Below are positions 1 to 64,000 of a DNA stretch of 64,000 nt, one piece after another. Made by a program: the position numbers and the translations under genes. Origin of the DNA: an uncultured Gammaproteobacteria bacterium. Lineage in GTDB: Bacteria > Patescibacteriota > Patescibacteriia > Patescibacteriales > UBA12465. Positions within the stretch are counted from its first letter, which is position 1. Each line of letters starts with the position of its first letter. The notes below the pieces were generated by a model. The model did not search any database, had not been told where the DNA came from, and was given only the letters and a program-made list of their open reading frames with translations. The stretch spans positions 49,750-113,749 of the forward strand of contig CAZCQW010000001.1 of assembly GCA_964500975.1 (NCBI GenBank), in the 5' to 3' direction.

Positions 1-661
1 TAAATAAGGGCGCCCATAAAGCAATTAAACAATTTCAAAAATATTTTTTTAAAGTCAGTCATAATAACACTAGAAATTGTTGGGTTTTAAAAGGCGACAT
101 TAGAAAATTTTTTGCCAGCATTGACCATGTTATTTTGTTGGATATTTTAGAGGATTATGTTCCTGATAAAGATATTTTAGAATTACTTGGAAAAATTATT
201 AGTAGTTTTAAGACCGGAATTAAAAATAAAGGTTTGCCGCTGGGAAATCTAACTTCCCATCTTTTTGCCAATATCTATTTAAATAAATTTGATCAGTTTA
301 TAAAACATAAATTAAAAGTTAAATATTATATTCGTTACGCCGATGATTTTGTTTTGATGTCCGATAATAAAGAATATCTTAAAAATCAAGTTTCTTTAAT
401 CCAAGATTATTTGCTAATAATCTTAAGTTAGAACTTCATCCTAATAAATTATTTTTAGAAACCATTTCTTCTGGTGTTGATTTTTTAGGTTGGGCCCATT
501 TTCCTGACCACCAAGTTTTACGCGGAGCCACAAGAAGAAGAATGTTTAGAAAAATTAGTAAAAATTCCAAAGAAGAATCTTTAAATTCATACTTAGGTTT
601 GCTTAGTCACGGTAATGCTAAAAAGTTGCAAGCAATAATTATCACAAAAAAAAGTGGTTAA
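1..661 (+). pseudogene. DGR-type (diversity-generating retroelement-like) reverse transcriptase; 5' end cut by the window edge and interrupted by a 1-nt frameshift
   Basis: Reading from nt 3 gives ..WVLKGDIRKFFASIDHVILL..GLPLGNLTSHLFANIYLNKFDQFIKHKL..YIRYADDFVLMS (RT motifs with a YADD catalytic box). This ORF stops at 431. Another frame continues with ANNLKLELHPNK..GVDFLGW..LR to TAA 659-661. The shift lies in the T-run of gattatttgct at about 411-420. Confidence 0.7.
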
Positions 662-2826: not shown

Positions 2827-5800
2827 TTAAATTACTCGAAAAACTTCCTCGATACTAGTTTCTCCGTTTAAGGCTTTCAAAATACCATCTTGAAGCATGG
2901 TAATTGAACCATCTTTAATTGCGGCTTGCTCGACCTCGAAGTCAGTCGAATTTTCTTTTAAGATTAAAGTTTGAATTTCTGGTGTCATTGAAATTGTTTC
3001 ATACAAACCAAGGCGACCCTTATAGCCAATATGACCACATTTTTCACAACCAGCGCCGTGATAAAAAGTTAGCTTTTCTGGAATTATAATTTCGGGGTTA
3101 TTTATTTGAGCTAAATTTTCTTTTACTCGTTTTAGGTCTTCTGGCGATATTTCAACTTCCTTTTTACAGTATTGACAAATTTTTCTAACTAAACGTTGTC
3201 CGATCGTAAACTCAATAGCGTTAATAAGTGTTTGTCTATCTAGACCAAGTCCTGCAAAACGAGAAATAGCTCCAGCGGCACTATTTGCGTGAATAGTAGA
3301 TAAAACTAAATGTCCAGTTAAGGCGGCATCCATAGCTATTTTAGCAGTTTCGGAGTCGCGAATTTCTCCTATCATCATGATGTTCGGATTTTGGCGAAGC
3401 AAAGAACGGATGGCAGCCGCAAAAGTATATCCGCTCGCCTCATCAATTTGAGTTTGCATTACCCCGGGCAATTGATATTCTATCGGATCTTCAATTGTAA
3501 TTATTTTAACGTCAGGTTTGTTTAACTTGTTTAAAATACTGTAAAGAGTGGTTGTTTTGCCGCTACCAGTTGGTCCTGTTGTAAGAATGATTCCGCGAGT
3601 TTTAGTTATGGCCTTGTTTAAAGATTTCAAGGCGACTGAATTAACGCCTAGGTCTTCAGTTTTTAAATCAATAGCGTTTGTAAGTAAAAGTCTAATAACA
3701 ATTGTTTCTCCATAACCACCGGCAATAATTGATAAACGACAATCCATTTTTCTGTCAGGAAGATAAATATTGAAACGCCCATCAAATGTGGCTCGTTTAA
3801 CGTTAGTAGCCTCACCGGCAAGAATTTTTATTTCCGAGAGAAGTGGTAAGTAACTTGTTTTTGGTAGTTTGAAAAAATCATGTAAAACTCCATCAATTCT
3901 AAATCTAATTGTGACATCTTTTTCTGTTGGCTCGATGTGAATATCGCCTGCGTTATTGAAAACGGCGAGCGACATCACTAGTCTTATTAGTTCAGTGCTA
4001 GGTATTTTTTTAACTTTTTCAGAAATGCTTTCTATGTCTTTGCTTAATTCCTCTGCCTTTAAATAATCTTCTTGTTTAACCTTTACTCCTCGTCCCATCG
4101 TTTGAGAAATCACGATATCATAAAGCTCGTCTATGTAATCAAAATTACCAATAACACGATAGACTTCGTCGAGTGATGTTTGCCCTTCTAGCACCTTTAA
4201 AACTCCATCCTGAAGCATGGTAATCATTCCATTTTCAATGGCTTGTTGTAAAATCTTAAAAGAAGGTGCGCTGTCTATTGTTAATTGTTTTATTTTATCA
4301 TCCATGACAAAAACCTCGTAAATGCCCAAACGACCTTTATAGCCTATAAAATTACATTCATCGCAGCCTTCGCCGGCTTTATAAATATTCGGGATTAAGG
4401 TTGGTATATCAATTCCAGCCTTAGGAGAAATAACTGATAAAATTTTATTGATTTTTTCATCTTCTTCTGCGCTTAAAGTGTGTTCCAGACGACAGTTTGG
4501 GCAAAGCTTTCGCAATAGGCGCTGACCGACAACTGCGTTTATAGAAGGAACTAAAAAATATGGTTTAACCCCCATGTCTATTAATCGAGGGATAACCCCT
4601 GAAGCATCATTGGTGTGAAGAGTTGATAAAACTAAATGGCCGGTTAGAGATGCTTGCACGGCAATTTCAGCTGTCTCTAAATCTCTAATTTCTCCAACCA
4701 TAACTACATTTGGATCTTGTCTTAAAACAGATCTAAGTCCATCAGAAAAAGTATAACCATGTTTAGTATCAACCTGGCTTTGGTTTATTCCCTTTAGCTG
4801 ATATTCCATTGGATCTTCTAATGTAATTATTTTAGTGCCTGGTTGGTTTAATTTATTAATTATCGCATAAAGAGTTGTGGTTTTTCCGCTGCCAGTTGGG
4901 CCAGTTGTTAAAATTAGTCCGTTTGGCTTGGCAATTTCTTTTTGAAGTATTGGAATAATTTCCGGTCTAAAGCCTAGGCTGTCTAATTCAAGCGCAGCAG
5001 TCGATGAGTCCAGTAAACGCATAACAACGCTTTCTCCGAAAGCAGTTGGTAAAAACGAACTACGAACATCTATATTTTTGTTACTTAGGTGAATTACGTA
5101 TCGCCCATCTTGAGGTTTGTTGTTAACATTGATTTTTACATGAGCTAACATTTTTAAACGAGAAATAATCTTCTTCCATTTATCTCTGTTAATAATGGCT
5201 GCTTCTTGTAGTACTCCATCTATTCTTAGTCTAATAACAACTCCAGATTCCTCTGCTTCGATATGAACATCGCTTGCTCTTGCTTTTAGCGCGGTTGCTA
5301 AAATAAGAGTTACTACATCACTGATATTGACCTCATTAATTTTGTAATTAAGATTTTTATAACTAGAAATATCGGCCTTAAATTTCTCAAGGCTTGTTTC
5401 GCTTATTTCGATGCCACTCTCATATCGTTTTACTTTTGGCACGTTTTTGTATTCCTCAAGTGCGCAACTAAAACTATTTTCTGAAATGAGATAAGCTCTA
5501 CCGCTAGTAAAGTATCTTTCATTTAGATCGCTTAGCAAGTCCATGGCCTCGCTAGTTTTTTCCAAAAGACCTAGTCGTATGTTTTTTCCGTCGTAGTAAA
5601 AACAAACAACCTTTAACTCAAGAGCAATATCTTCAGGTATTAGAGATATGGCCTCCGGGCTAACAGGAAAACCTACAAGGTTAACATAATCAAGCCCGAT
5701 TAGCCTGGCTTGACTTTCAGTTTTCTTTTCTATGTCTTTAAGTTTTATCTCTTCTTGTTTTTTAGCAAAAAGACCGGTGACGCTATCTTCGTCATCGGTT

Positions 5801-5838
5801 GGGTTTATGAGGTTATTAATCGAAGTAAGATTGCTCAT
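2827..5838 (-). CDS. pilB: Tandem-fused double PilB/GspE-type type IV pilus / T2SS assembly ATPase
   Basis: A 1003-aa ORF with one N-terminal GspE_N/MshEN-like domain followed by two complete ATPase cores. Walker A GPTGSGKTTTLY occurs twice. Walker B/Asp boxes are VVMVGEIRD and IMMIGEIRD. His boxes are TGHLVLSTLHTN and TGHLVLSTIHAN. There are two tetracysteine clusters (CPNC..CDEC and CQYC..CEKC). Confidence 0.9.
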   Translation of the reverse strand: MSNLTSINNLINPTDDEDSVTGLFAKKQEEIKLKDIEKKTESQARLIGLDYVNLVGFPVSPEAISLIPEDIALELKVVCFYYDGKNIRLGLLEKTSEAMDLLSDLNERYFTSGRAYLISENSFSCALEEYKNVPKVKRYESGIEISETSLEKFKADISSYKNLNYKINEVNISDVVTLILATALKARASDVHIEAEESGVVIRLRIDGVLQEAAIINRDKWKKIISRLKMLAHVKINVNNKPQDGRYVIHLSNKNIDVRSSFLPTAFGESVVMRLLDSSTAALELDSLGFRPEIIPILQKEIAKPNGLILTTGPTGSGKTTTLYAIINKLNQPGTKIITLEDPMEYQLKGINQSQVDTKHGYTFSDGLRSVLRQDPNVVMVGEIRDLETAEIAVQASLTGHLVLSTLHTNDASGVIPRLIDMGVKPYFLVPSINAVVGQRLLRKLCPNCRLEHTLSAEEDEKINKILSVISPKAGIDIPTLIPNIYKAGEGCDECNFIGYKGRLGIYEVFVMDDKIKQLTIDSAPSFKILQQAIENGMITMLQDGVLKVLEGQTSLDEVYRVIGNFDYIDELYDIVISQTMGRGVKVKQEDYLKAEELSKDIESISEKVKKIPSTELIRLVMSLAVFNNAGDIHIEPTEKDVTIRFRIDGVLHDFFKLPKTSYLPLLSEIKILAGEATNVKRATFDGRFNIYLPDRKMDCRLSIIAGGYGETIVIRLLLTNAIDLKTEDLGVNSVALKSLNKAITKTRGIILTTGPTGSGKTTTLYSILNKLNKPDVKIITIEDPIEYQLPGVMQTQIDEASGYTFAAAIRSLLRQNPNIMMIGEIRDSETAKIAMDAALTGHLVLSTIHANSAAGAISRFAGLGLDRQTLINAIEFTIGQRLVRKICQYCKKEVEISPEDLKRVKENLAQINNPEIIIPEKLTFYHGAGCEKCGHIGYKGRLGLYETISMTPEIQTLILKENSTDFEVEQAAIKDGSITMLQDGILKALNGETSIEEVFRVI

Positions 5839-5841
5839 AGC

Positions 5842-6819
5842 TTATTTTTTTCGGAAAAGTCGCTCTAACTTAGAAGCCCCTTTATTTTCATTAAGTTTAA
5901 TGTATAAATCAGTCCAACTTGCTACTTGAAAACTTGTTAAAATTGACCCAAATACGGTTACAGCGACTATGCATAAAATAATTACTAAAATAGCTAACCA
6001 GTTAATTGAAAATACTAAGCCTAGCCAAATAAACGGAAAAGCAACAATCGCTAAAGAAATCAAAATCACCACGCTACTAAAGAAGCTAATTAAAAAAAGC
6101 AGCATAGCCAACTCCAGGCTGATTAGCCAATTATTTAAAAATAATTTATAAGCCTTCTCAAAAGAATTAATGATTGATTTATTTTCTAAAACCCTTGCTG
6201 ATATCGCATATTTAACTATTAGAGATAGTGATAAGGCAATTGGGACAAAGATTGTAAATAGGATAGTGTAGGCAATAGTAAGAATTAAACTATCACTTAT
6301 AACCATAAAAAGAAGCGGCAAACTAATAATGAAGAAGGAGAAACTAATTAAGAGTCTGATTAAAATATTTAAACCTAAAACACTCCAAAAATGCTCATTT
6401 CCGACTGCTAAACCGCTGCGAATACTGGAGTCTGATGCTTTCTTTTTTGCGCTTAATATTCTTTTTATTCTATCAATTAGAGCTGCCTGAGAGCTGACGG
6501 CGAACCAAGTTATGGTTACGATTAAAGTTAAAGCTAAAAGAAGTATGGTAAAAGAATTAATAATAACAATTATGTTCTGACTAAATAGGTCTATTAGGCC
6601 AAACCAAATTTTTTGACCTAATTCGCTTATGGCAAGCAGGGAATTTAATCCTTGATAGGATCCATTTACAACGCCGTTACTAAATACTTGGGTGATGTAT
6701 CTGTATTCCATAGACCCTCCGGCGACCGTTAAAGACGCAAAAAGACCGAAAAACCATAAATATTTATGAGTCCAGACAATGACCCAGGCTTGTTTTAAAA
6801 TTGAGCGATAAGAGAACAT
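5842..6819 (-). CDS. Polytopic membrane protein of unknown function (about 3 nt upstream of the double PilB gene, same strand)
   Basis: 325 aa with multiple long hydrophobic segments. No family recognised. Confidence 0.6.
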   Translation of the reverse strand: MFSYRSILKQAWVIVWTHKYLWFFGLFASLTVAGGSMEYRYITQVFSNGVVNGSYQGLNSLLAISELGQKIWFGLIDLFSQNIIVIINSFTILLLALTLIVTITWFAVSSQAALIDRIKRILSAKKKASDSSIRSGLAVGNEHFWSVLGLNILIRLLISFSFFIISLPLLFMVISDSLILTIAYTILFTIFVPIALSLSLIVKYAISARVLENKSIINSFEKAYKLFLNNWLISLELAMLLFLISFFSSVVILISLAIVAFPFIWLGLVFSINWLAILVIILCIVAVTVFGSILTSFQVASWTDLYIKLNENKGASKLERLFRKK

Positions 6820-59569: not shown

Positions 59570-59615
59570 TACAACATTTAGTGGTTAGTTCTTTAAACAG
59601 CCACAAAATGTGGGA
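59570..59615 (+). promoter_or_regulatory. Two candidate degenerate NrdR boxes (tacaacatttagtg and cacaaaatgtggga), centres about 32 bp apart
   Basis: By-eye comparison with the published NrdR-box consensus acaCwAtATaTwGtgt gives about 11/14 and 9/14 matches to its 14-nt core. The sites lie between the promoter and the nrdR ATG. Confidence 0.3.
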
Positions 59616-59631
59616 TTTCACTACAAAATCT

Positions 59632-60090
59632 ATGAAATGTCCAATTTGCTATTATCCCGACACAAAAGTCGTGGATTCACGGGTTGCGCCCGACGGATTA
59701 TCTATCCGAAGACGTCGCGAATGTTTGAAATGTAGCTTCAGATTTTCAACTTATGAAGAAATAGAACTCCTGGATTTAGTGATTGTTAAAAGGGACGGTC
59801 GTCGGGAATCATATAGTCGCGAAAAAATGGTTAGCGGACTAAAGAAATCCTGCGAAAAGAGACCGATTACTGACGATAGATTTAAAAAATTAATCCATTC
59901 AATAGAAAGAGACCTTCAGAGACTAAAAGATGCTGAAATAACTTCTCGCCAGATTGGCCAAGTAGTTATGAAGAATCTTAAGAAAGTTGATCAGGTTGCT
60001 TATATCCGCTATGCCTCCGTTTATGAATCCTTTAAGGATGCTCGTGAATTTCAAAAAGAGTTAAATAAATTAATTAAGGAGAAAAAATAG
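59632..60090 (+). CDS. nrdR: Transcriptional repressor NrdR
   Basis: MKCPICYYPDTKVVDSRVAPDGLSIRRRRECLKCSFRFSTYE.. (Zn ribbon + ATP-cone). Start moved to the ATG at 59632; track ORF 59581 begins with GTG. Confidence 0.9.
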   Translation: MKCPICYYPDTKVVDSRVAPDGLSIRRRRECLKCSFRFSTYEEIELLDLVIVKRDGRRESYSREKMVSGLKKSCEKRPITDDRFKKLIHSIERDLQRLKDAEITSRQIGQVVMKNLKKVDQVAYIRYASVYESFKDAREFQKELNKLIKEKK

Positions 60091-60091
60091 T

Positions 60092-62149
60092 ATGTCTGAA
60101 ATGATAAGCAAACTAATCAAACGATCGGGAGAAATCGTAGATTTCGACCAAGACAAAATTGTTAAAGCTGTCTATAAAGCCGCTGTTTCAGTTGGCGTTG
60201 ACGATAAGCATCTTGCTAAAAAACTTGGCGATCAAGTAATAATTAAAATTATTAGCAAGTTTCATAAAAATAGTATTCCAGCGGTTGAAGAAATTCAAGA
60301 TGTTGTTGAAGAAGTTTTAATTGAAAACAAATTAACCAAGATTGCTAAAGCTTATATTATTTATCGTGACCAACATCGTCAAATCAGAGATATTAACAAT
60401 GCCACCGCTGACGAAAAATTAATGGAAGATTATTTAGGTCGCGGCGACTGGCGTTTGAAAGAGAATAGCAACATGAGCTTTTCTGTTCAAGGCTTAAATA
60501 ATTATATTGCTTCTGCTATTTCCGCTCGCTACTGGTTAAATAAAATGTATCCTGAAAATATCCGCCAAGCTCATGTTAATGGCGATATGCACATTCATGA
60601 TTTGGGTTTGCTTGCCCCATATTGCTGTGGTTGGGATTTAAAAGATTTATTAATCCGCGGTTTTAAAGGTGTTGACGAAAAGGTCCAAAGTTTACCACCA
60701 AAACATTTCCGCAGTGCCTTAGGTCAGATTGTTAATTTTTTCTATACTATGCAGGGCGAAGCCGCTGGCGCTCAAGCTTTTGCTAACTTTGATACTTATC
60801 TTGCTCCGTTTATCCGTTATGATGGCCTAACTTATAAAGAAGTTAAACAAGGTCTTCAAGAATTCATGTTTAACATTAATGTTCCAACTCGCGTTGGTTT
60901 TCAAACTCCATTCACTAACGTTACTTTAGACGTTACCCCATCCCCAATGATAGGTGAGGAAAGTGTAATTATTGGTGGTCAAGTAATGCCAGAAAAATAT
61001 AAAGATTTCCAAGTGGAAATGGATATGTTTAACCAGGCTTTTGCTGAAGTTATGTTAGCCGGGGACTCAACTGGTCGTGTATTCGGTTTCCCAATTCCTA
61101 CTTATTGTATTGATAAAACCTTTGAATATGATAGAGAGTGTCTAAAGCCAGTTTGGGAGATGACCGCTAAATACGGTATTCCATATTTTTCAAATTTCGT
61201 TAATTCCGATATGAATCGTGATGATGCGCGTTCAATGTGCTGCCGTCTTCGCTTAGATAATCGTGAACTTAGAAAACGTGGCGGTGGTTTATTTGGTGCC
61301 AATCCTTTAACTGGTTCACTTGGTGTTGTAACTATTAATCTTGCTCGTCTTGGTTATTTGTCAAAAGATAAAGAAGAGTTTAAAACCAGATTAGTTCATT
61401 TAATGGATTTAGCTAAAGAGTCTTTAGAAATTAAGAGAAAAATTGTTGAAAAGTTTACTGAAGATAGATTATATCCTTATTCAATGTTCTATCTAGATAA
61501 TATTCGCGCTCGTTTTGGCTCTTACTGGAAAAATCATTTCTCAACTATTGGTATTAACGGTATGAATGAAGCCGTATTAAACTTAATGGGTAAAGATATT
61601 ACTACTCCCGAAGGTCATGCTTTCGCCGCTGAAACTTTAGACTTCATGAGAGAGAGATTGATGGATTATCAAAACGAAACCAATGATCTTTATAACTTAG
61701 AAGCGACTCCTGGCGAAGGATGTACTTATCGTTTTGCTAAAAAAGACCAGCAGCTTTACCCAGGCATTATCTGTTCTAATACTGAAGCGGTTAAAAAATT
61801 TGGTGCTGACCCATACTATACAAACTCAACTCATTTACATGTAAATTATACTGACGATATTTTCTCCGCGCTTGATTTGCAAGATGATTTACAAACTAAA
61901 TACACTGGTGGCACAGTTTTACATGGTTATTTAGGTGAACGTTTACCAGACGGCGATACAGCTAAAAAATTAGTAAAGAAAATCGTTGATAATTATAAAC
62001 TTCCATATTTCACTATTACTCCGACTTTCTCAATTTGTCCTAAGCACGGTTATCTTTCCGGTGAACATAAATTCTGTCCTAAATGTGATGAAGAAATTGG
62101 TTACAGCGAAAACGTAGAAGATATTAGAGAGGCTAATCAAAGCGTCTAA
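60092..62149 (+). CDS. nrdD: Anaerobic (class III) ribonucleoside-triphosphate reductase, large polypeptide lacking the glycyl-radical C-terminus
   Basis: 685 aa with an N-terminal ATP-cone, ..SMCCRLRLD.. (active-site Cys loop) and a C-terminal Zn-ribbon-like CPKH..CPKC. It ends at TAA 62147-62149 without an RVxG[YW] motif. Confidence 0.9.
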   Translation: MSEMISKLIKRSGEIVDFDQDKIVKAVYKAAVSVGVDDKHLAKKLGDQVIIKIISKFHKNSIPAVEEIQDVVEEVLIENKLTKIAKAYIIYRDQHRQIRDINNATADEKLMEDYLGRGDWRLKENSNMSFSVQGLNNYIASAISARYWLNKMYPENIRQAHVNGDMHIHDLGLLAPYCCGWDLKDLLIRGFKGVDEKVQSLPPKHFRSALGQIVNFFYTMQGEAAGAQAFANFDTYLAPFIRYDGLTYKEVKQGLQEFMFNINVPTRVGFQTPFTNVTLDVTPSPMIGEESVIIGGQVMPEKYKDFQVEMDMFNQAFAEVMLAGDSTGRVFGFPIPTYCIDKTFEYDRECLKPVWEMTAKYGIPYFSNFVNSDMNRDDARSMCCRLRLDNRELRKRGGGLFGANPLTGSLGVVTINLARLGYLSKDKEEFKTRLVHLMDLAKESLEIKRKIVEKFTEDRLYPYSMFYLDNIRARFGSYWKNHFSTIGINGMNEAVLNLMGKDITTPEGHAFAAETLDFMRERLMDYQNETNDLYNLEATPGEGCTYRFAKKDQQLYPGIICSNTEAVKKFGADPYYTNSTHLHVNYTDDIFSALDLQDDLQTKYTGGTVLHGYLGERLPDGDTAKKLVKKIVDNYKLPYFTITPTFSICPKHGYLSGEHKFCPKCDEEIGYSENVEDIREANQSV

Positions 62150-62216
62150 AAAACTTTAAAAAGCCCAGTTGTAATTTTAGTAAACTTAATTTATAATTTA
62201 AATAACAAGTAAAAAT

Positions 62217-62357
62217 ATGAGTCCAATTCAAACACAAAGACAAGAATGTATTGTTTACAGCCGAGTCGTTGGCTGGTTAACACCGGTTAAGAATTATAAT
62301 CCCGGTAAAGCATCTGAATACAAGGATAGAAAAACATTTAAGGTTTGCGCCGAGTAA
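62217..62357 (+). CDS. 46-aa stand-alone glycyl-radical peptide corresponding to the NrdD C-terminus
   Basis: Hand translation: MSPIQTQRQECIVYSRVVGWLTPVKNYNPGKASEYKDRKTFKVCAE*. SRVVGW..NPGK..E..DRK matches the NrdD glycyl-radical loop region. The ORF is not in the track (too short) and is in a different frame from nrdD. Confidence 0.75.
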   Translation: MSPIQTQRQECIVYSRVVGWLTPVKNYNPGKASEYKDRKTFKVCAE

Positions 62358-62372
62358 TCAGATTTTACGCTT

Positions 62373-63098
62373 ATGATTATTGGAGGTTTAGAGAAGTTAA
62401 CTCTTCTTGATTACCCCGATCATTTAGCGGCCATAATCTTTACCCAAGGTTGTAATTTTCGTTGTCACTTTTGCTACAACCCAATGCTTGTCCTGCCCCT
62501 AACGGGAGAGGATTTAAAAATAAAAAAAGAAAAAGGTTTTTCTCCGCTTTCCACTGAAGACCTTTTTCTTTTTTTGAAGGAAAGATTTGGACGCCTTGAA
62601 GGGGTCGTTATAACAGGCGGGGAGCCAACCATGCACCCAGACCTGCCGTCTTTTATTAAGAAAATAAAAGATATTGGTTATTTAGTTAAGTTAGATTCTA
62701 ATGGGACAAATCCAGAAATGCTTAAAGAATTAATTAAAGAAAAACTAATTGATTATATTGCCATGGATTTAAAAGCGCCACTTGATAAATATGAAGAAAC
62801 TATTGGCGTTAAACTTGACTACAACAATATCAAAAAAAGTGTTAAAATAATAACTGAGAGTGGGCTACCGTATGAGTTTAGAACGACGGTAGTGCCAGGA
62901 CTTTTAGTTTCAGATGATTTTGATAAAATGGGAGAACTAATTAAAGGTGCTTCGAAGTGGTATCTCCAGAATTTTAAATCTGATACTGACTTAGTTGATG
63001 CGAGTTATAAACAGCAAAAAGGTTACACCGCTCGCGACATGAAAGCTTTTGCGGAAATTGGAAAGAAATACGTTGGTCTTTGTGAAGTTAGAGGCTAG
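62373..63098 (+). CDS. nrdG: Anaerobic ribonucleotide reductase activating enzyme (radical SAM)
   Basis: 241 aa, ..LTLLDYPDHLAAIIFTQGCNFRCHFCYNP.. (Cx3Cx2C). Confidence 0.9.
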   Translation: MIIGGLEKLTLLDYPDHLAAIIFTQGCNFRCHFCYNPMLVLPLTGEDLKIKKEKGFSPLSTEDLFLFLKERFGRLEGVVITGGEPTMHPDLPSFIKKIKDIGYLVKLDSNGTNPEMLKELIKEKLIDYIAMDLKAPLDKYEETIGVKLDYNNIKKSVKIITESGLPYEFRTTVVPGLLVSDDFDKMGELIKGASKWYLQNFKSDTDLVDASYKQQKGYTARDMKAFAEIGKKYVGLCEVRG

Positions 63099-63113: not shown

Positions 63114-63386
63114 ATGTTAGTTCAAGAATATAAAGAAAAATCTGAAACAGCCAAGGCTCCTGATGTAAATAATTCAGAGGCCATTATTAATTTACTTCAA
63201 CTTAATTTGGAGAAGACCGAAGAAATTTTAAAAATTTCACAAGAAACAAAAAATTATGTTAAGTGGCAGAGAATTTGGAGTGTTTCGCGTTTAGTTTTTA
63301 TCATTGCTCCTATTATTTTAGGTTTCTTGTATTTGCCGTCCTTATTAAAAGATCTTTTTTCATCTTATCAGTCATTACTTCAATAG
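63114..63386 (+). CDS. Small hypothetical protein with a C-terminal TM helix
   Basis: 90-aa ORF, ..IWSVSRLVFIIAPIILGFLYLPSLL... Confidence 0.45.
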   Translation: MLVQEYKEKSETAKAPDVNNSEAIINLLQLNLEKTEEILKISQETKNYVKWQRIWSVSRLVFIIAPIILGFLYLPSLLKDLFSSYQSLLQ

Positions 63387-63408
63387 TTTTGATTTATCTT
63401 AGATTTTT

Positions 63409-64000
63409 ATGGATAATATTGCCGTTTTTGCTCAAACAACTTATAGAAACGAATTCAAAAAATTTGGTATTAAAACTGACGACAGACGCCGTCATATGTA
63501 TTTGATTGGGAAAACCGGTATGGGTAAATCAACAATCTTGGAAAACATGATTATTGATGATATTCGCGCTGGCCATGGTGTGGCCGTTGTTGATCCGCAT
63601 GGCGACTTAGCAGAAAAAATAATCGAGTATATTCCTGATAACAGAATTCAGGATGTTGTCTATTTTAATCCAGCGGATATAAATTTCCCAATTGCATTTA
63701 ATATCGTTGAGCAGGTAGAGCCTCATTTGCGTCATTTAGTTGCCTCGGGATTAATCGGTGTTTTTCAAAAATTGTGGGCTGATTCTTGGGGACCACGTTT
63801 AGAATATATTTTACGTAATGCTATTTTAGCAATTTTGGATTTTCCCGGTTCGACTATTCTGGGCGTTGTTAGAATGTTGTCCGATAAAAATTATCGTAAA
63901 CGCGTTGTTGCAAATATTAAAGATCCAGTTGTGAAAGCTTTTTGGGAAAAAGAATTTTCTGGTTATGCCGATAAGTTTGCTTCCGAAGCAGTATCTCCTA
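63409..64000 (+). CDS. VirD4/TraD/TrwB-like type IV secretion coupling ATPase (N-terminal ~197 aa; runs off the window)
   Basis: Hand translation from the ATG at 63409: MDNIAVFAQTTYRNEFKKFGIKTDDRRRHMYLIGKTGMGKSTILENMIIDDIRAGHGVAVVDPHGDL..LVASGLIGVFQKLWADSWGPRLEYILRNA... Walker A is GKTGMGKST. The ORF is absent from the track because it has no stop inside the window. Confidence 0.6.
   Translation, partial: MDNIAVFAQTTYRNEFKKFGIKTDDRRRHMYLIGKTGMGKSTILENMIIDDIRAGHGVAVVDPHGDLAEKIIEYIPDNRIQDVVYFNPADINFPIAFNIVEQVEPHLRHLVASGLIGVFQKLWADSWGPRLEYILRNAILAILDFPGSTILGVVRMLSDKNYRKRVVANIKDPVVKAFWEKEFSGYADKFASEAVSP

What the first reader, a model, noticed from the sequence alone, without database searches (positions are those of the whole stretch)
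60092..62357. Split class III ribonucleotide reductase: the glycyl-radical loop is a separate 46-aa ORF (a GrcA-like 'spare part' arrangement)
NrdD (685 aa) ends right after its C-terminal Zn-ribbon-like CPKH..CPKC without the glycyl-radical motif. After 67 nt, an unannotated ORF (62217-62357) encodes MSPIQTQRQECIVYSRVVGWLTPVKNYNPGKASEYKDRKTFKVCAE. This is the RVxG[YW] radical loop plus the conserved N-x-GK..E..R tail that is normally the last ~40 aa of NrdD. The activase nrdG follows 15 nt later. I checked the spacer by hand and found stops in all three forward frames between 62147 and 62201 (TAA 62147, TAA 62194, TAA 62199). No single or double indel can therefore fuse the two ORFs, which argues against a simple sequencing error. 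Pyruvate formate-lyase has a known stand-alone radical-domain protein (E. coli GrcA/YfiD) that can replace the oxygen-damaged C-terminus. I am not aware of an equivalent described for class III RNR. The alternative is a decaying nrdD.
Basis: partly seen in the sequence, partly recalled or inferred. Interest (0 to 1): 0.7.

Follow-up and report, generated by a model that had tools for sequence, protein, structure and literature searches.

The report
Two-piece anaerobic ribonucleotide reductase
In this bacterium and more than a hundred relatives, the enzyme that makes DNA building blocks without oxygen has its radical-carrying tip encoded as a separate, strongly conserved 46-residue protein, an arrangement I found no description of for this enzyme class.

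Summary
nrdD (60092-62149, 685 aa) stops 20 residues after its Zn ribbon. A 67-nt spacer with stops in all three frames follows. A 46-aa ORF (62217-62357) then encodes exactly the missing glycyl-radical segment (Pfam NRDD positions 530-562 of 562), and nrdG starts 15 nt later.

It is not an error or a decaying gene:
- All 120 closest NrdD homologues end at the same point.
- 136 species genomes carry the small ORF; every locus examined whose upstream DNA was held has the nrdD / small ORF / nrdG order.
- Spacers are 18-193 nt and occur in all three relative frames.
- dN/dS of the small ORF is about 0.03.
- One viral contig has the small gene upstream of its truncated nrdD, which excludes read-through or recoding.
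- Fused relatives (about 57% identical) read CPKC-TIKQP-CEVYSR.

Best reading: an obligate two-subunit class III RNR whose radical loop is a detachable peptide, activated by NrdG and probably transcribed with it from a promoter in the spacer. It is a replaceable part but not a "spare": the large subunit has no loop of its own. Docking by AlphaFold was uninformative.

In passing I found many orphan NrdD-type radical peptides on phage contigs. A 2026 review says spare-part proteins are known only for formate lyases.

The parts
59581..60090 (+). nrdR (transcriptional repressor of nrd genes). This is the mechanical ORF; the likely true start is the ATG at about 59632 (MKCPICYY...). It ends 1 nt before nrdD.
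   Evidence: Pfam Zn_ribbon_NrdR 2.4e-20 and ATP-cone 1.6e-19. The nrdR-nrdD order is conserved in L001 and L004.
60092..62149 (+). nrdD large subunit, 685 aa: ATP-cone (residues 8-96), catalytic barrel with finger-loop Cys pair C383/C384, Zn ribbon C649-P-K-H652...C662-P-K-C665, then a 20-residue tail (DEEIGYSENVEDIREANQSV) and TAA. It has no glycyl-radical loop.
   Evidence: Pfam NRDD positions 1-529/562, E 7e-181. NF006126 at 1024 bits. All 120 closest homologues end 8-33 aa after CPKC. Catalytic and Zn residues are invariant against fused relatives. The model has the class III RNR fold, TM 0.6-0.74.
62087..62146 (+). C-terminal tail of the large subunit (residues 666-685). It has no counterpart in fused NrdDs. 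Its first six residues, D-E-E-I-G-Y, are conserved across split lineages and the rest is variable.
   Evidence: Alignment with fused relatives shows a 25-aa insertion, DEEIGY...SV + MSPIQ. The tail motif is shared with L093, which is 61% identical. No detectable homology to the Gly loop.
62150..62216 (+). 67-nt AT-rich spacer with stops in all three frames. It contains a sigma-70-type promoter-like site: TTGTAA 62169-62174, 17 nt, TATAAT 62192-62197, ending 19 nt before the ATG.
   Evidence: Stops. Promoter-like site with 10 of 12 matches. The same TTGnnn-16..18-TATAAT architecture occurs in 42 of 82 unique spacers against 6.2 +/- 2.4 in shuffles. No terminator and no Rfam hit. Spacer length is 18-193 nt across loci.
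62217..62357 (+). Small subunit, 46 aa: MSPIQTQRQECIVYSRVVGWLTPVKNYNPGKASEYKDRKTFKVCAE. Predicted glycyl-radical residue is G19 (codon 62271-62273) in R16-V-V-G-W20. C11, Y14, N28, G30, K31, E34 and R38 are invariant.
   Evidence: Pfam NRDD positions 530-562/562. 136 stand-alone homologues of 41-65 aa. Invariant columns. dN/dS about 0.03 with saturated synonymous sites.
62373..63098 (+). nrdG, the radical-SAM activase (241 aa), 15 nt after the small ORF.
   Evidence: TIGR02495 NrdG2 5.3e-63, Pfam Radical_SAM 3.9e-26. The gap from the small ORF to nrdG is 2-18 nt in 58 of 86 loci.

Best explanation
This is an obligately two-subunit class III (anaerobic) ribonucleotide reductase.

- The 685-aa NrdD supplies the ATP-cone, the catalytic barrel with the thiyl-radical cysteine, and the Zn ribbon.
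- The 46-aa protein supplies, in trans, the beta-hairpin that carries the radical glycine (G19) and the short helix that normally forms the last ~40 residues of NrdD.
- NrdG, encoded 15 nt downstream, abstracts the hydrogen from G19. It acts either on the free peptide or on the peptide bound to NrdD.
- The loop sits in the barrel opposite C384 and starts catalysis as in single-chain NrdD.
- The small gene and nrdG are probably also transcribed from their own promoter in the spacer, so the radical peptide and its activase can be made independently of the large subunit.

Shown: the split, its conservation, its selection, its gene order, and that it cannot be repaired by recoding.

Inferred: assembly in trans, activation by NrdG, and the benefit. 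Two benefits are plausible. Oxygen cleaves the chain at the radical glycine, so only a 46-residue peptide would need replacing rather than a 685-residue enzyme. An untethered loop would also reach the activase without the large domain movement that single-chain enzymes need.
For: 1. Complementary profile coverage: positions 1-529 and 530-562 of Pfam NRDD.
2. All 120 closest NrdDs (85-97% identity) lack the loop and end at the same place.
3. 136 species-level genomes encode the small ORF. All 85 related loci examined that include the upstream DNA show an nrdD stop, a spacer of 18-193 nt in relative frames 0, 1 and 2, an ATG of their own, then nrdG. One of them is a complete chromosome, CP066698.1.
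4. The small ORF is under very strong purifying selection: pN 0.06, pS 0.77, median dN/dS 0.03, third-position entropy 1.19 against 0.17-0.22.
5. Catalytic and Zn-site residues of the large subunit, and the loop residues of the peptide, are invariant against 59 naturally fused NrdDs. The only difference is a 25-aa insertion that holds the stop and the start.
6. A second lineage (L093, 61% identical, RVVGY-type peptide) has the same break and the same D[DE]EIGY tail.
7. Viral contig L154 has the small gene upstream of a truncated nrdD that ends CPKCEAEG*.
8. A conserved promoter-like motif lies in the spacer and the small ORF is tightly linked to nrdG.
9. Precedent from the literature: PFL-AE installs the radical on the free proteins YfiD and Y06I, which then form a complex with oxygen-cleaved PFL (PMC8683613).
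Against: - There is no direct evidence that the peptide is translated, binds NrdD or carries a radical.
- AlphaFold2 on the concatenated chain gave only pLDDT 40-50 for the peptide and 35-45 for the finger loop. A naturally fused control was equally poor (43-64), so this neither supports nor refutes docking.
- I could not scan whole genomes for a second, intact nrdD or another RNR class.
- The promoter evidence comes from related sequences that are not independent, and about half the spacers lack the motif.
- The selective rationale (cheap repair, easier activation) is inference only.
Confidence: 0.8

Rival explanations
1. Sequencing or assembly error, or a recently inactivated (decaying) nrdD; the 46-aa ORF is just the out-of-frame remnant.
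For: A single locus with a stop shortly before a conserved motif is what a pseudogene looks like. NCBI and JGI annotate the small ORFs merely as short 'anaerobic ribonucleoside-triphosphate reductase' entries.
Against: The same break occurs in independent assemblies of 136 species, including a closed chromosome. dN/dS is about 0.03 on the small ORF. The large subunit is 76-97% conserved, with all catalytic residues intact. The start codon and N-terminus MSP... are conserved.
Confidence: 0.01
2. The two ORFs are joined during expression into one canonical NrdD chain, by programmed frameshifting, stop-codon read-through, translational bypassing, a small intron or protein splicing.
For: Phage T4 has both a group I intron in nrdD and translational bypassing in gene 60 (my own knowledge). 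Inteins do occur in these nrdD genes, for example P0192, P0240 and P0385.
Against: - The spacer has stops in all three frames.
- Spacer length is 18-193 nt and the relative frame is 0, 1 or 2 across loci, with no conserved sequence apart from the promoter-like motif and the start context.
- There is no Rfam family hit.
- The flanking peptide segments (8-39 aa and about 9 aa) are far too short for a split intein.
- In L154 the small gene precedes nrdD.
Confidence: 0.02
3. A true GrcA-like spare part: the genome has another, intact NrdD elsewhere, and the 46-mer only rescues it after oxygen damage. The truncated NrdD next to it would be inactive or have another role.
For: Orphan NrdD-type peptides unlinked to nrdD exist in a cellular contig (L089/L090) and on phage contigs, so the peptide can be carried on its own. 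I could not search whole genomes for a second nrdD.
Against: The truncated NrdD is itself under strong constraint, keeps every catalytic residue and sits between nrdR and the peptide-nrdG pair in every locus. The closest 120 homologues in a 5.8-billion-protein database are all truncated, so close intact paralogues are not evident. These genomes are small; the closed chromosome is 977 kb.
Confidence: 0.05
4. The peptide is not a catalytic part. It acts as a regulator or decoy substrate of NrdG, for example a radical buffer or an inhibitor, while the truncated NrdD obtains its radical in some other way.
For: Nothing here shows physical assembly, and modelling was inconclusive.
Against: No glycine-independent route to the thiyl radical is known for class III RNR. 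The peptide conserves exactly the residues that are invariant in the fused enzymes' loop and helix, not just the activase recognition motif.
Confidence: 0.04

Closest known systems
Canonical single-chain class III RNR (NrdD with NrdG): E. coli, phage T4, Thermotoga maritima, Prevotella copri, Streptococcus thermophilus; and the fused NrdDs of other Patescibacteria (Nealsonbacteria, Parcubacteria DG_74_2)
   Same: Same family (NF006126 at 1024 bits). Same fold (Foldseek E 1e-30 to 1e-20, TM 0.6-0.74). Same ATP-cone, finger-loop cysteines, Zn ribbon, loop motif and NrdG2 activase.
   Different: The radical loop and terminal helix are on a separate 46-aa polypeptide. Relative to fused relatives (CPKC-TIKQP-CEVYSRIVGY) there is a 25-codon insertion that carries a stop, a spacer and a new start.
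GrcA/YfiD of E. coli and Y06I of phage T4 (autonomous glycyl radical cofactors, 'spare parts' for pyruvate formate-lyase)
   Same: A small stand-alone protein that carries only the glycyl-radical segment of a glycyl radical enzyme, presumably activated by that enzyme's own activase and working in trans (PMC8683613; PMC13450708).
   Different: - GrcA is homologous to the PFL C-terminus, whereas this peptide matches only Pfam NRDD.
- GrcA is 127 aa with a disordered N-terminus, against 46 aa here.
- GrcA coexists with a PFL that has its own loop and replaces it after oxygen cleavage. Here the large subunit never has a loop, so the peptide is obligatory.
- The 2026 review says spare parts are known only for formate lyases.
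Other naturally split RNRs: Pseudomonas aeruginosa class II NrdJa/NrdJb (PMC4520616); Aeromonas phage Aeh1 NrdA split by the homing endonuclease gene mobE (my own knowledge)
   Same: An RNR catalytic subunit encoded as two adjacent genes that must assemble non-covalently.
   Different: Those are classes II and I, and the breaks lie elsewhere in the protein. Here the break isolates precisely the radical cofactor-bearing element, and no mobile element occupies the gap (spacer 18-193 nt).
Multi-subunit glycyl radical enzymes with small accessory subunits (benzylsuccinate synthase beta/gamma, 4-hydroxyphenylacetate decarboxylase gamma)
   Same: A large glycyl-radical-enzyme barrel subunit working with one or more small polypeptides (PMC12590467 listed; the rest is my own knowledge).
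   Different: In those enzymes the radical glycine stays on the large subunit, and the small subunits are FeS or regulatory proteins. Here the small subunit is the radical carrier.

Membership tests
Class III ribonucleotide reductase (NrdD/NrdG) | NrdD catalytic barrel domain | tested here: met
   Pfam PF13597 E 7e-181. NF006126 at 1024 bits against a cutoff of 548. Foldseek top hits are all class III RNR structures.
Class III ribonucleotide reductase (NrdD/NrdG) | Finger-loop cysteine that becomes the thiyl radical, and the C-terminal Zn ribbon | tested here: met
   C383/C384 (MCCRLRL) and C649, H652, C662, C665 are invariant in the alignment with 59 fused NrdDs. Assigning C384 as the radical cysteine is by homology, not by test.
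Class III ribonucleotide reductase (NrdD/NrdG) | Glycyl-radical motif RVxG[YFW] at the C-terminus of the same polypeptide as the barrel | tested here: not met
   Absent from the 685-aa protein and from all 120 closest homologues. Present instead on the separate 46-aa ORF (R16-V-V-G19-W20).
Class III ribonucleotide reductase (NrdD/NrdG) | Cognate radical-SAM activase encoded alongside | tested here: met
   nrdG 62373-63098, TIGR02495 NrdG2 5.3e-63. It is adjacent in all related loci.
Class III ribonucleotide reductase (NrdD/NrdG) | Glycyl radical formed on the conserved Gly, and NTP reduction | not testable with these tools
   Needs anaerobic reconstitution, EPR and an activity assay.
GrcA/YfiD-type spare-part protein | Small autonomous protein consisting of a glycyl-radical segment | tested here: met
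   46 aa with its own ATG and stop. 136 stand-alone homologues of 41-65 aa.
GrcA/YfiD-type spare-part protein | Sequence homology to the PFL C-terminal glycine-radical domain | tested here: not met
   The Pfam scan at E <= 1 returns only PF13597 (NRDD) for the 46-mer.
GrcA/YfiD-type spare part protein | Backs up a full-length enzyme that has its own radical loop | tested here: not met
   The partner NrdD has no loop in the window or in any of the >200 relatives examined. A second, intact nrdD elsewhere in the genome could not be excluded.
Gene split by a mobile element (homing endonuclease, intron, intein) | A mobile-element ORF or structured intron RNA between the two halves | tested here: not met
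   The spacer is 67 nt here and 18-193 nt elsewhere, with no ORF and no Rfam match.
Programmed recoding (frameshift, bypass, read-through) | Fixed frame relationship and conserved recoding signals between the two ORFs | tested here: not met
   Relative frames 0, 1 and 2 all occur. Spacers vary in length and sequence. There are stops in every frame. Gene order is reversed in L154.

The most novel reading that the evidence does not exclude
NrdD-type autonomous glycyl-radical peptides form a widespread, previously unrecognised class of exchangeable 'radical cartridges'. In many Patescibacteria the cartridge is the only radical loop the RNR has. It may be replaced after each oxygen hit and supplied from its own promoter together with the activase. 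Many phages carry just the cartridge, either the ~45-aa minimal form or an 80-130-aa form with its own Zn ribbon. They would use it to re-arm the host's split or oxygen-cleaved NrdD and keep dNTP synthesis running during infection. That would make these the first spare-part proteins for a ribonucleotide reductase and a new kind of phage auxiliary metabolic gene.
Probability: 0.35. Interest if true: 0.9.

Novelty: new variant of a known kind. Interest (0 to 1): 0.8.

Why it matters
Glycyl radical enzymes are destroyed by oxygen because the chain is cut at the radical glycine. For more than twenty years the only known countermeasure has been the GrcA/YfiD spare part for pyruvate formate-lyase, and reviewers have openly asked whether other such enzymes have equivalents.

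This locus is a natural, strongly selected case in the essential enzyme of DNA precursor synthesis. The radical-bearing element has been made a separate, cheaply replaceable 46-residue subunit across a large part of the candidate phyla radiation.

It offers three things:
- a minimal, genetically defined substrate for studying how an activase installs a glycyl radical and how the loop enters the barrel;
- a possible explanation of how tiny-genome anaerobes tolerate oxygen fluctuations;
- a lead to what may be a large family of phage-borne RNR spare parts.

It also matters for annotation. The small ORF is often unannotated or called a fragment, and the large ORF is scored as a complete NrdD.

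Tried and rejected
- **Structure test.** AlphaFold2 on the concatenated NrdD + 46-mer, with 59 fused homologues as the alignment, gave mean pLDDT 72 but only 40-50 over the peptide and 35-45 over the finger loop. The control on a naturally fused NrdD (P0401) with the same alignment was equally weak there (43-64). The docking test is therefore uninformative, not negative.
- **Alignment artefacts.** MAFFT placed the small peptides on 'GRVFGFPIP' inside the barrel (A3). When many truncated rows were present it aligned the fused enzymes' RIVGY to the tail's EEIGY (A4). I discarded both alignments. The correct alignment came from fused rows only (A5).
- **Tail as a degenerate duplicate of the Gly loop.** This was suggested by the A4 artefact and by overlapping HMM envelopes. 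I rejected it: real tails score no better than shuffled tails against a Gly-loop HMM.
- **NrdR boxes.** No match to the canonical box with up to 3 mismatches in the window.
- **RNA families.** No Rfam hit in the spacer.
- **Shine-Dalgarno analysis.** Only 7 of 79 small-ORF upstream regions have an SD-like motif. The motif is equally rare upstream of nrdG and, with a less reliable start call, nrdD, so this says nothing either way.
- **Viral status of the RVVGW-type orphan loci (L098-L112).** PHROG scans found only collagen-like 'tail fibre' repeats, a glycosyltransferase, RtcB and an RNA-binding protein, with no hallmark genes. I do not claim these are phages.
- **Literature.** Five searches and four papers searched by keyword turned up no description of a split NrdD or an NrdD spare part. 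The library lacks most subscription journals, so absence is not proof.
Full report
**1. The observation**

- nrdR, 59581-60090
- nrdD, 60092-62149 (685 aa)
- a 67-nt spacer
- a 46-aa ORF, 62217-62357
- a 15-nt gap
- nrdG, 62373-63098

NrdD ends ...CPKHGYLSGEHKFCPKC-DEEIGYSENVEDIREANQSV*. It has no RVxG[YWF] motif.

Against Pfam NRDD (562 positions), the large protein covers positions 1-529 (E 7e-181). The 46-mer covers 530-562 (E 6.7e-7, above the gathering score). The two products therefore tile the family model exactly. NCBIfam assigns the large protein to NF006126 (1024 bits) and the downstream gene to TIGR02495 NrdG2 (5e-63).

The small ORF is in the +1 frame relative to nrdD.

**2. Is it real?**

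- A search with the 46-mer against 5.8 billion proteins returned 136 hits. The 120 listed are all stand-alone proteins of 41-65 aa, from NCBI, JGI, ENA and Logan assemblies. Where named, the organisms are mostly Falkowbacteria and Parcubacteria, with one Methylomirabilis label.
- The consensus is MSPIxTxRQECIVYSRVVGWLTPVKNxNPGKASEYKDRKTF, with 16 invariant positions.
- A search with the large protein returned 120 homologues at 85-97% identity. Every one stops 8-33 residues after CPKC and none has a glycine-radical motif.
- A scan of one genome per species found the small ORF in 136 species. I examined the 80 loci returned plus six loci from metagenome look-ups. In all 85 for which the upstream DNA was held, an nrdD stop is followed by a spacer of 18-193 nt. 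The small ORF occurs in relative frame 0, 1 or 2, has its own ATG, and nrdG follows. One locus is a closed 977-kb Falkowbacteria chromosome, CP066698.1 (L014).
- Over 34 codons and 84 distinct nucleotide sequences, synonymous sites are saturated (pS 0.77). Non-synonymous differences are rare (pN 0.06), and the median dN/dS is 0.03.

Sequencing error and gene decay are excluded.

**3. What exactly differs from an intact NrdD?**

Other Patescibacteria (Nealsonbacteria, Parcubacteria DG_74_2) have single-chain NrdDs of 704-708 aa. They are 55-59% identical to the window protein. Their junction reads ...SICPVHGYISGEHFYCPKC-TIKQP-CEVYSRIVGYLRPVQQWNLGKQQEFKERKEFKV.

Aligned to these, the window's two products match end to end except for a 25-residue insertion. 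The insertion is DEEIGYSENVEDIREANQSV | MSPIQ, and it lies in the 5-residue linker between the last Zn-ribbon cysteine and the conserved cysteine that precedes the loop.

The following residues are invariant across split and fused forms:
- large subunit: C178, C383/C384, C649, H652, C662, C665
- peptide: C11, V13, Y14, R16, V18, G19, N28, G30, K31, E34, R38

A second split lineage has the same break and the same D[DE]EIGY start to its tail. This is L093, probably Buchananbacteria-like to judge from a close (90%-cluster) relative of its peptide. Its NrdD is 61% identical to the window's and its peptide is RVVGY-type. The split is therefore old. A single origin for these two lineages is the parsimonious reading, but that is inference.

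The tail is not a degenerate copy of the loop.

**4. Can expression rejoin the halves?**

No.
- Frames and spacer lengths vary freely, and every frame has stops.
- Nothing in Rfam matches the spacer.
- The flanking segments are too short for a split intein.
- Most tellingly, viral contig L154 has a family-A DNA polymerase gene followed by the small ORF (3226-3375, NRDD positions 530-562). Only after that comes nrdD (3378-6425: ATP-cone, NRDD positions 99-528, a LAGLIDADG intein). That nrdD ends CPKCEAEG*. With the small gene upstream, the two products must act as separate polypeptides.

**5. Expression signals**

The spacer holds TTGTAA-17 nt-TATAAT (62169-62197), ending 19 nt before the ATG. 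On its own this is no more than chance in AT-rich DNA.

However, a TTGnnn-16..18-TATAAT site (at least 4 of 6 matches in the first hexamer, at least 5 of 6 in the second) is present in 42 of 82 distinct spacers. Shuffled spacers give 6.2 +/- 2.4, with a maximum of 13. The first hexamer is TTGTAA in 35 of the 42. The loci are related, so this is suggestive rather than proof.

There is no terminator after nrdD. The gap between the small ORF and nrdG is 2-18 nt in 58 of 86 loci.

My reading is that nrdR-nrdD read-through transcription is supplemented by a second promoter driving the peptide and its activase. Shine-Dalgarno motifs are rare upstream of all three genes, so their absence here says nothing.

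**6. Mechanism**

The best-supported model is a heteromeric NrdD. The peptide provides the radical hairpin in trans, NrdG activates it, and catalysis proceeds as in canonical class III RNR.

Two established facts about the superfamily make this plausible:
- The PFL activase installs the radical on the free proteins YfiD and Y06I, which then form a complex with oxygen-cleaved PFL. From my own knowledge, it also acts on short PFL-derived peptides.
- In single-chain enzymes the radical domain must swing out of the barrel to reach the activase (my own knowledge).

Oxygen cuts the chain at the radical glycine. With a split enzyme the loss is a 46-residue peptide. That benefit is inferred.

Modelling could not test docking. 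The concatenated chain has the class III RNR fold. It shows the expected hairpin (697-702 / 705-708, with G704 at the tip) and helix (714-721). But pLDDT is only 40-50 there, and a naturally fused control is no better.

**7. Relation to what is known**

The locus meets every testable criterion of class III RNR except that the radical motif is not on the barrel polypeptide.

It resembles GrcA/YfiD in being an autonomous radical peptide, but it fails two defining features. It is not PFL-type, and it does not back up an enzyme that has its own loop.

[quoted passage not shown] The 2021 JBC paper raises spare parts for other glycyl radical enzymes only as speculation. Five literature searches found no split NrdD. 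The held library is incomplete, so prior description elsewhere cannot be ruled out.

**8. Beyond the window**

An exhaustive profile-free search of 1.84 billion cluster representatives gave 901 hits. Of the best 150, almost all are Met-initiated proteins of 40-130 aa with the motif CEVYSRVVGY..P...WN.GK..E..DRK.F. They are much more diverse than the window's group. Some carry their own CxxC...CxxC ribbon.

In IMG/VR, at least 511 viral contigs encode a relative of the segment. Of the best 80, 72 are small ORFs with no nrdD core and no nrdG within 6 kb. Several sit in unmistakable phage contexts:
- L158, between the terminase and portal genes
- L161, among portal and head-morphogenesis genes
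- L143, next to primase and helicase genes

A cellular example lies next to mraZ-rsmH (L089).

These orphans are candidates for true NrdD spare parts or for phage supply of the host's cartridge. I did not establish what their hosts' NrdDs look like.

**9. Verdict**

The arrangement is a new architectural variant of a well-known enzyme, conserved across a large bacterial radiation, and I found no published description of it.

Confidence that the peptide is a functional, separately translated radical subunit: about 0.8. Confidence in the oxygen-repair rationale is lower.

Noticed in passing
IMG/VR loci L098-L177; e.g. L158:5911-6141, L161:5746-6156, L143:5695-6108, L123:5947-6111: Orphan NrdD-type glycyl-radical small ORFs (40-133 aa) occur on viral contigs, with no nrdD core or nrdG within 6 kb in 72 of the best 80 loci. 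At least 511 viral contigs encode a relative of the segment. L158 sits between the terminase and portal genes. L161 lies among portal and head genes. L143 is next to primase and helicase genes. These are candidate RNR 'spare parts', analogous to T4 Y06I for PFL.
   Followed up: partly
L113, L126, L130, L131, L143, L146, L161, L163, L165, L166, L174, L176; proteins P0254, P0266, P0299, P0313, P0364, P0388: There is a second architecture of stand-alone radical protein: 80-133 aa with its own CxxC...CxxC Zn ribbon followed by the Gly loop (Pfam NRDD positions 483-562 in L161). In these the break point lies before the ribbon rather than after it, which suggests independent origins.
   Followed up: partly
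L154:805-6425 (IMGVR_UViG_3300000477_000201): A viral contig carries a split NrdD in reversed gene order: polA, then the small radical ORF (3226-3375), then nrdD (3378-6425). The nrdD contains a LAGLIDADG intein and ends CPKCEAEG*.
   Followed up: yes
L089:5001-5147 and L090:4167-4313 (protein P0255): A 48-aa NrdD-type radical peptide lies directly after mraZ-rsmH in a cellular-looking contig, seen on 14 contigs, with no nrdD or nrdG nearby. The location and state of that organism's nrdD are unknown.
   Followed up: no
window 62211-62222 and the same position in 79 related loci: The two bases before the small ORF's ATG are almost fixed (A at -2 in 90%, T at -1 in 97%; also A at -6 in 86%), giving ATATGAG, although the rest of the spacer is variable. 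The reason is unknown. It may be an initiation context for a short-leader mRNA.
   Followed up: partly
C-termini of large and small subunits in related loci (e.g. L041, L056, L057, L069, L077, L078, L083; window small ORF ...KVCAE): Many large-subunit tails end in cysteine pairs (ERCSTC, SSCCEA, ETCCQG). Many small subunits end with one to three cysteines (ACSE, KQFC, DCNC, GCGSCGCDK). This recalls the redox-active C-terminal cysteine pairs of class I and II RNRs. The window's own tail has none.
   Followed up: no
window 63114-63386 and 63400-64000; L001:5917-8123; L004:5917-7959; L093:5926-6165: A conserved hypothetical gene of about 80-92 aa follows nrdG in the window, L001, L004 and L093; the window's product has a hydrophobic C-terminal half. 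In L001 and L004 a TraG/VirD4-like coupling ATPase (TrwB_AAD_bind) comes next. The window has an incomplete P-loop ORF at that position, and L093 has a release-factor gene instead. The link to the nrd genes is unexplained.
   Followed up: no
Proteins P0192, P0206, P0240 (split clade); P0385, P0456, P0468, P0481, P0497, P0500 (fused clade): Oversized NrdDs occur in both the split and the fused Patescibacteria clades. Five carry intein or LAGLIDADG Pfam hits; the other four (P0192, P0206, P0468, P0481) are inferred from length alone. In P0385 a 403-aa LAGLIDADG intein sits at ...GSLTG|C...GN|SIGVV, just after the finger loop.
   Followed up: partly
Record titles of loci L008, L009, L015, L019-L022 and others: Many genome records that carry this typically Patescibacteria locus are titled 'uncultured Gammaproteobacteria bacterium' (MAG TPA_asm series), and single ones are titled Planctomycetota or Bacillota. 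These are probably mislabelled or mis-binned records rather than real taxonomic spread.
   Followed up: no
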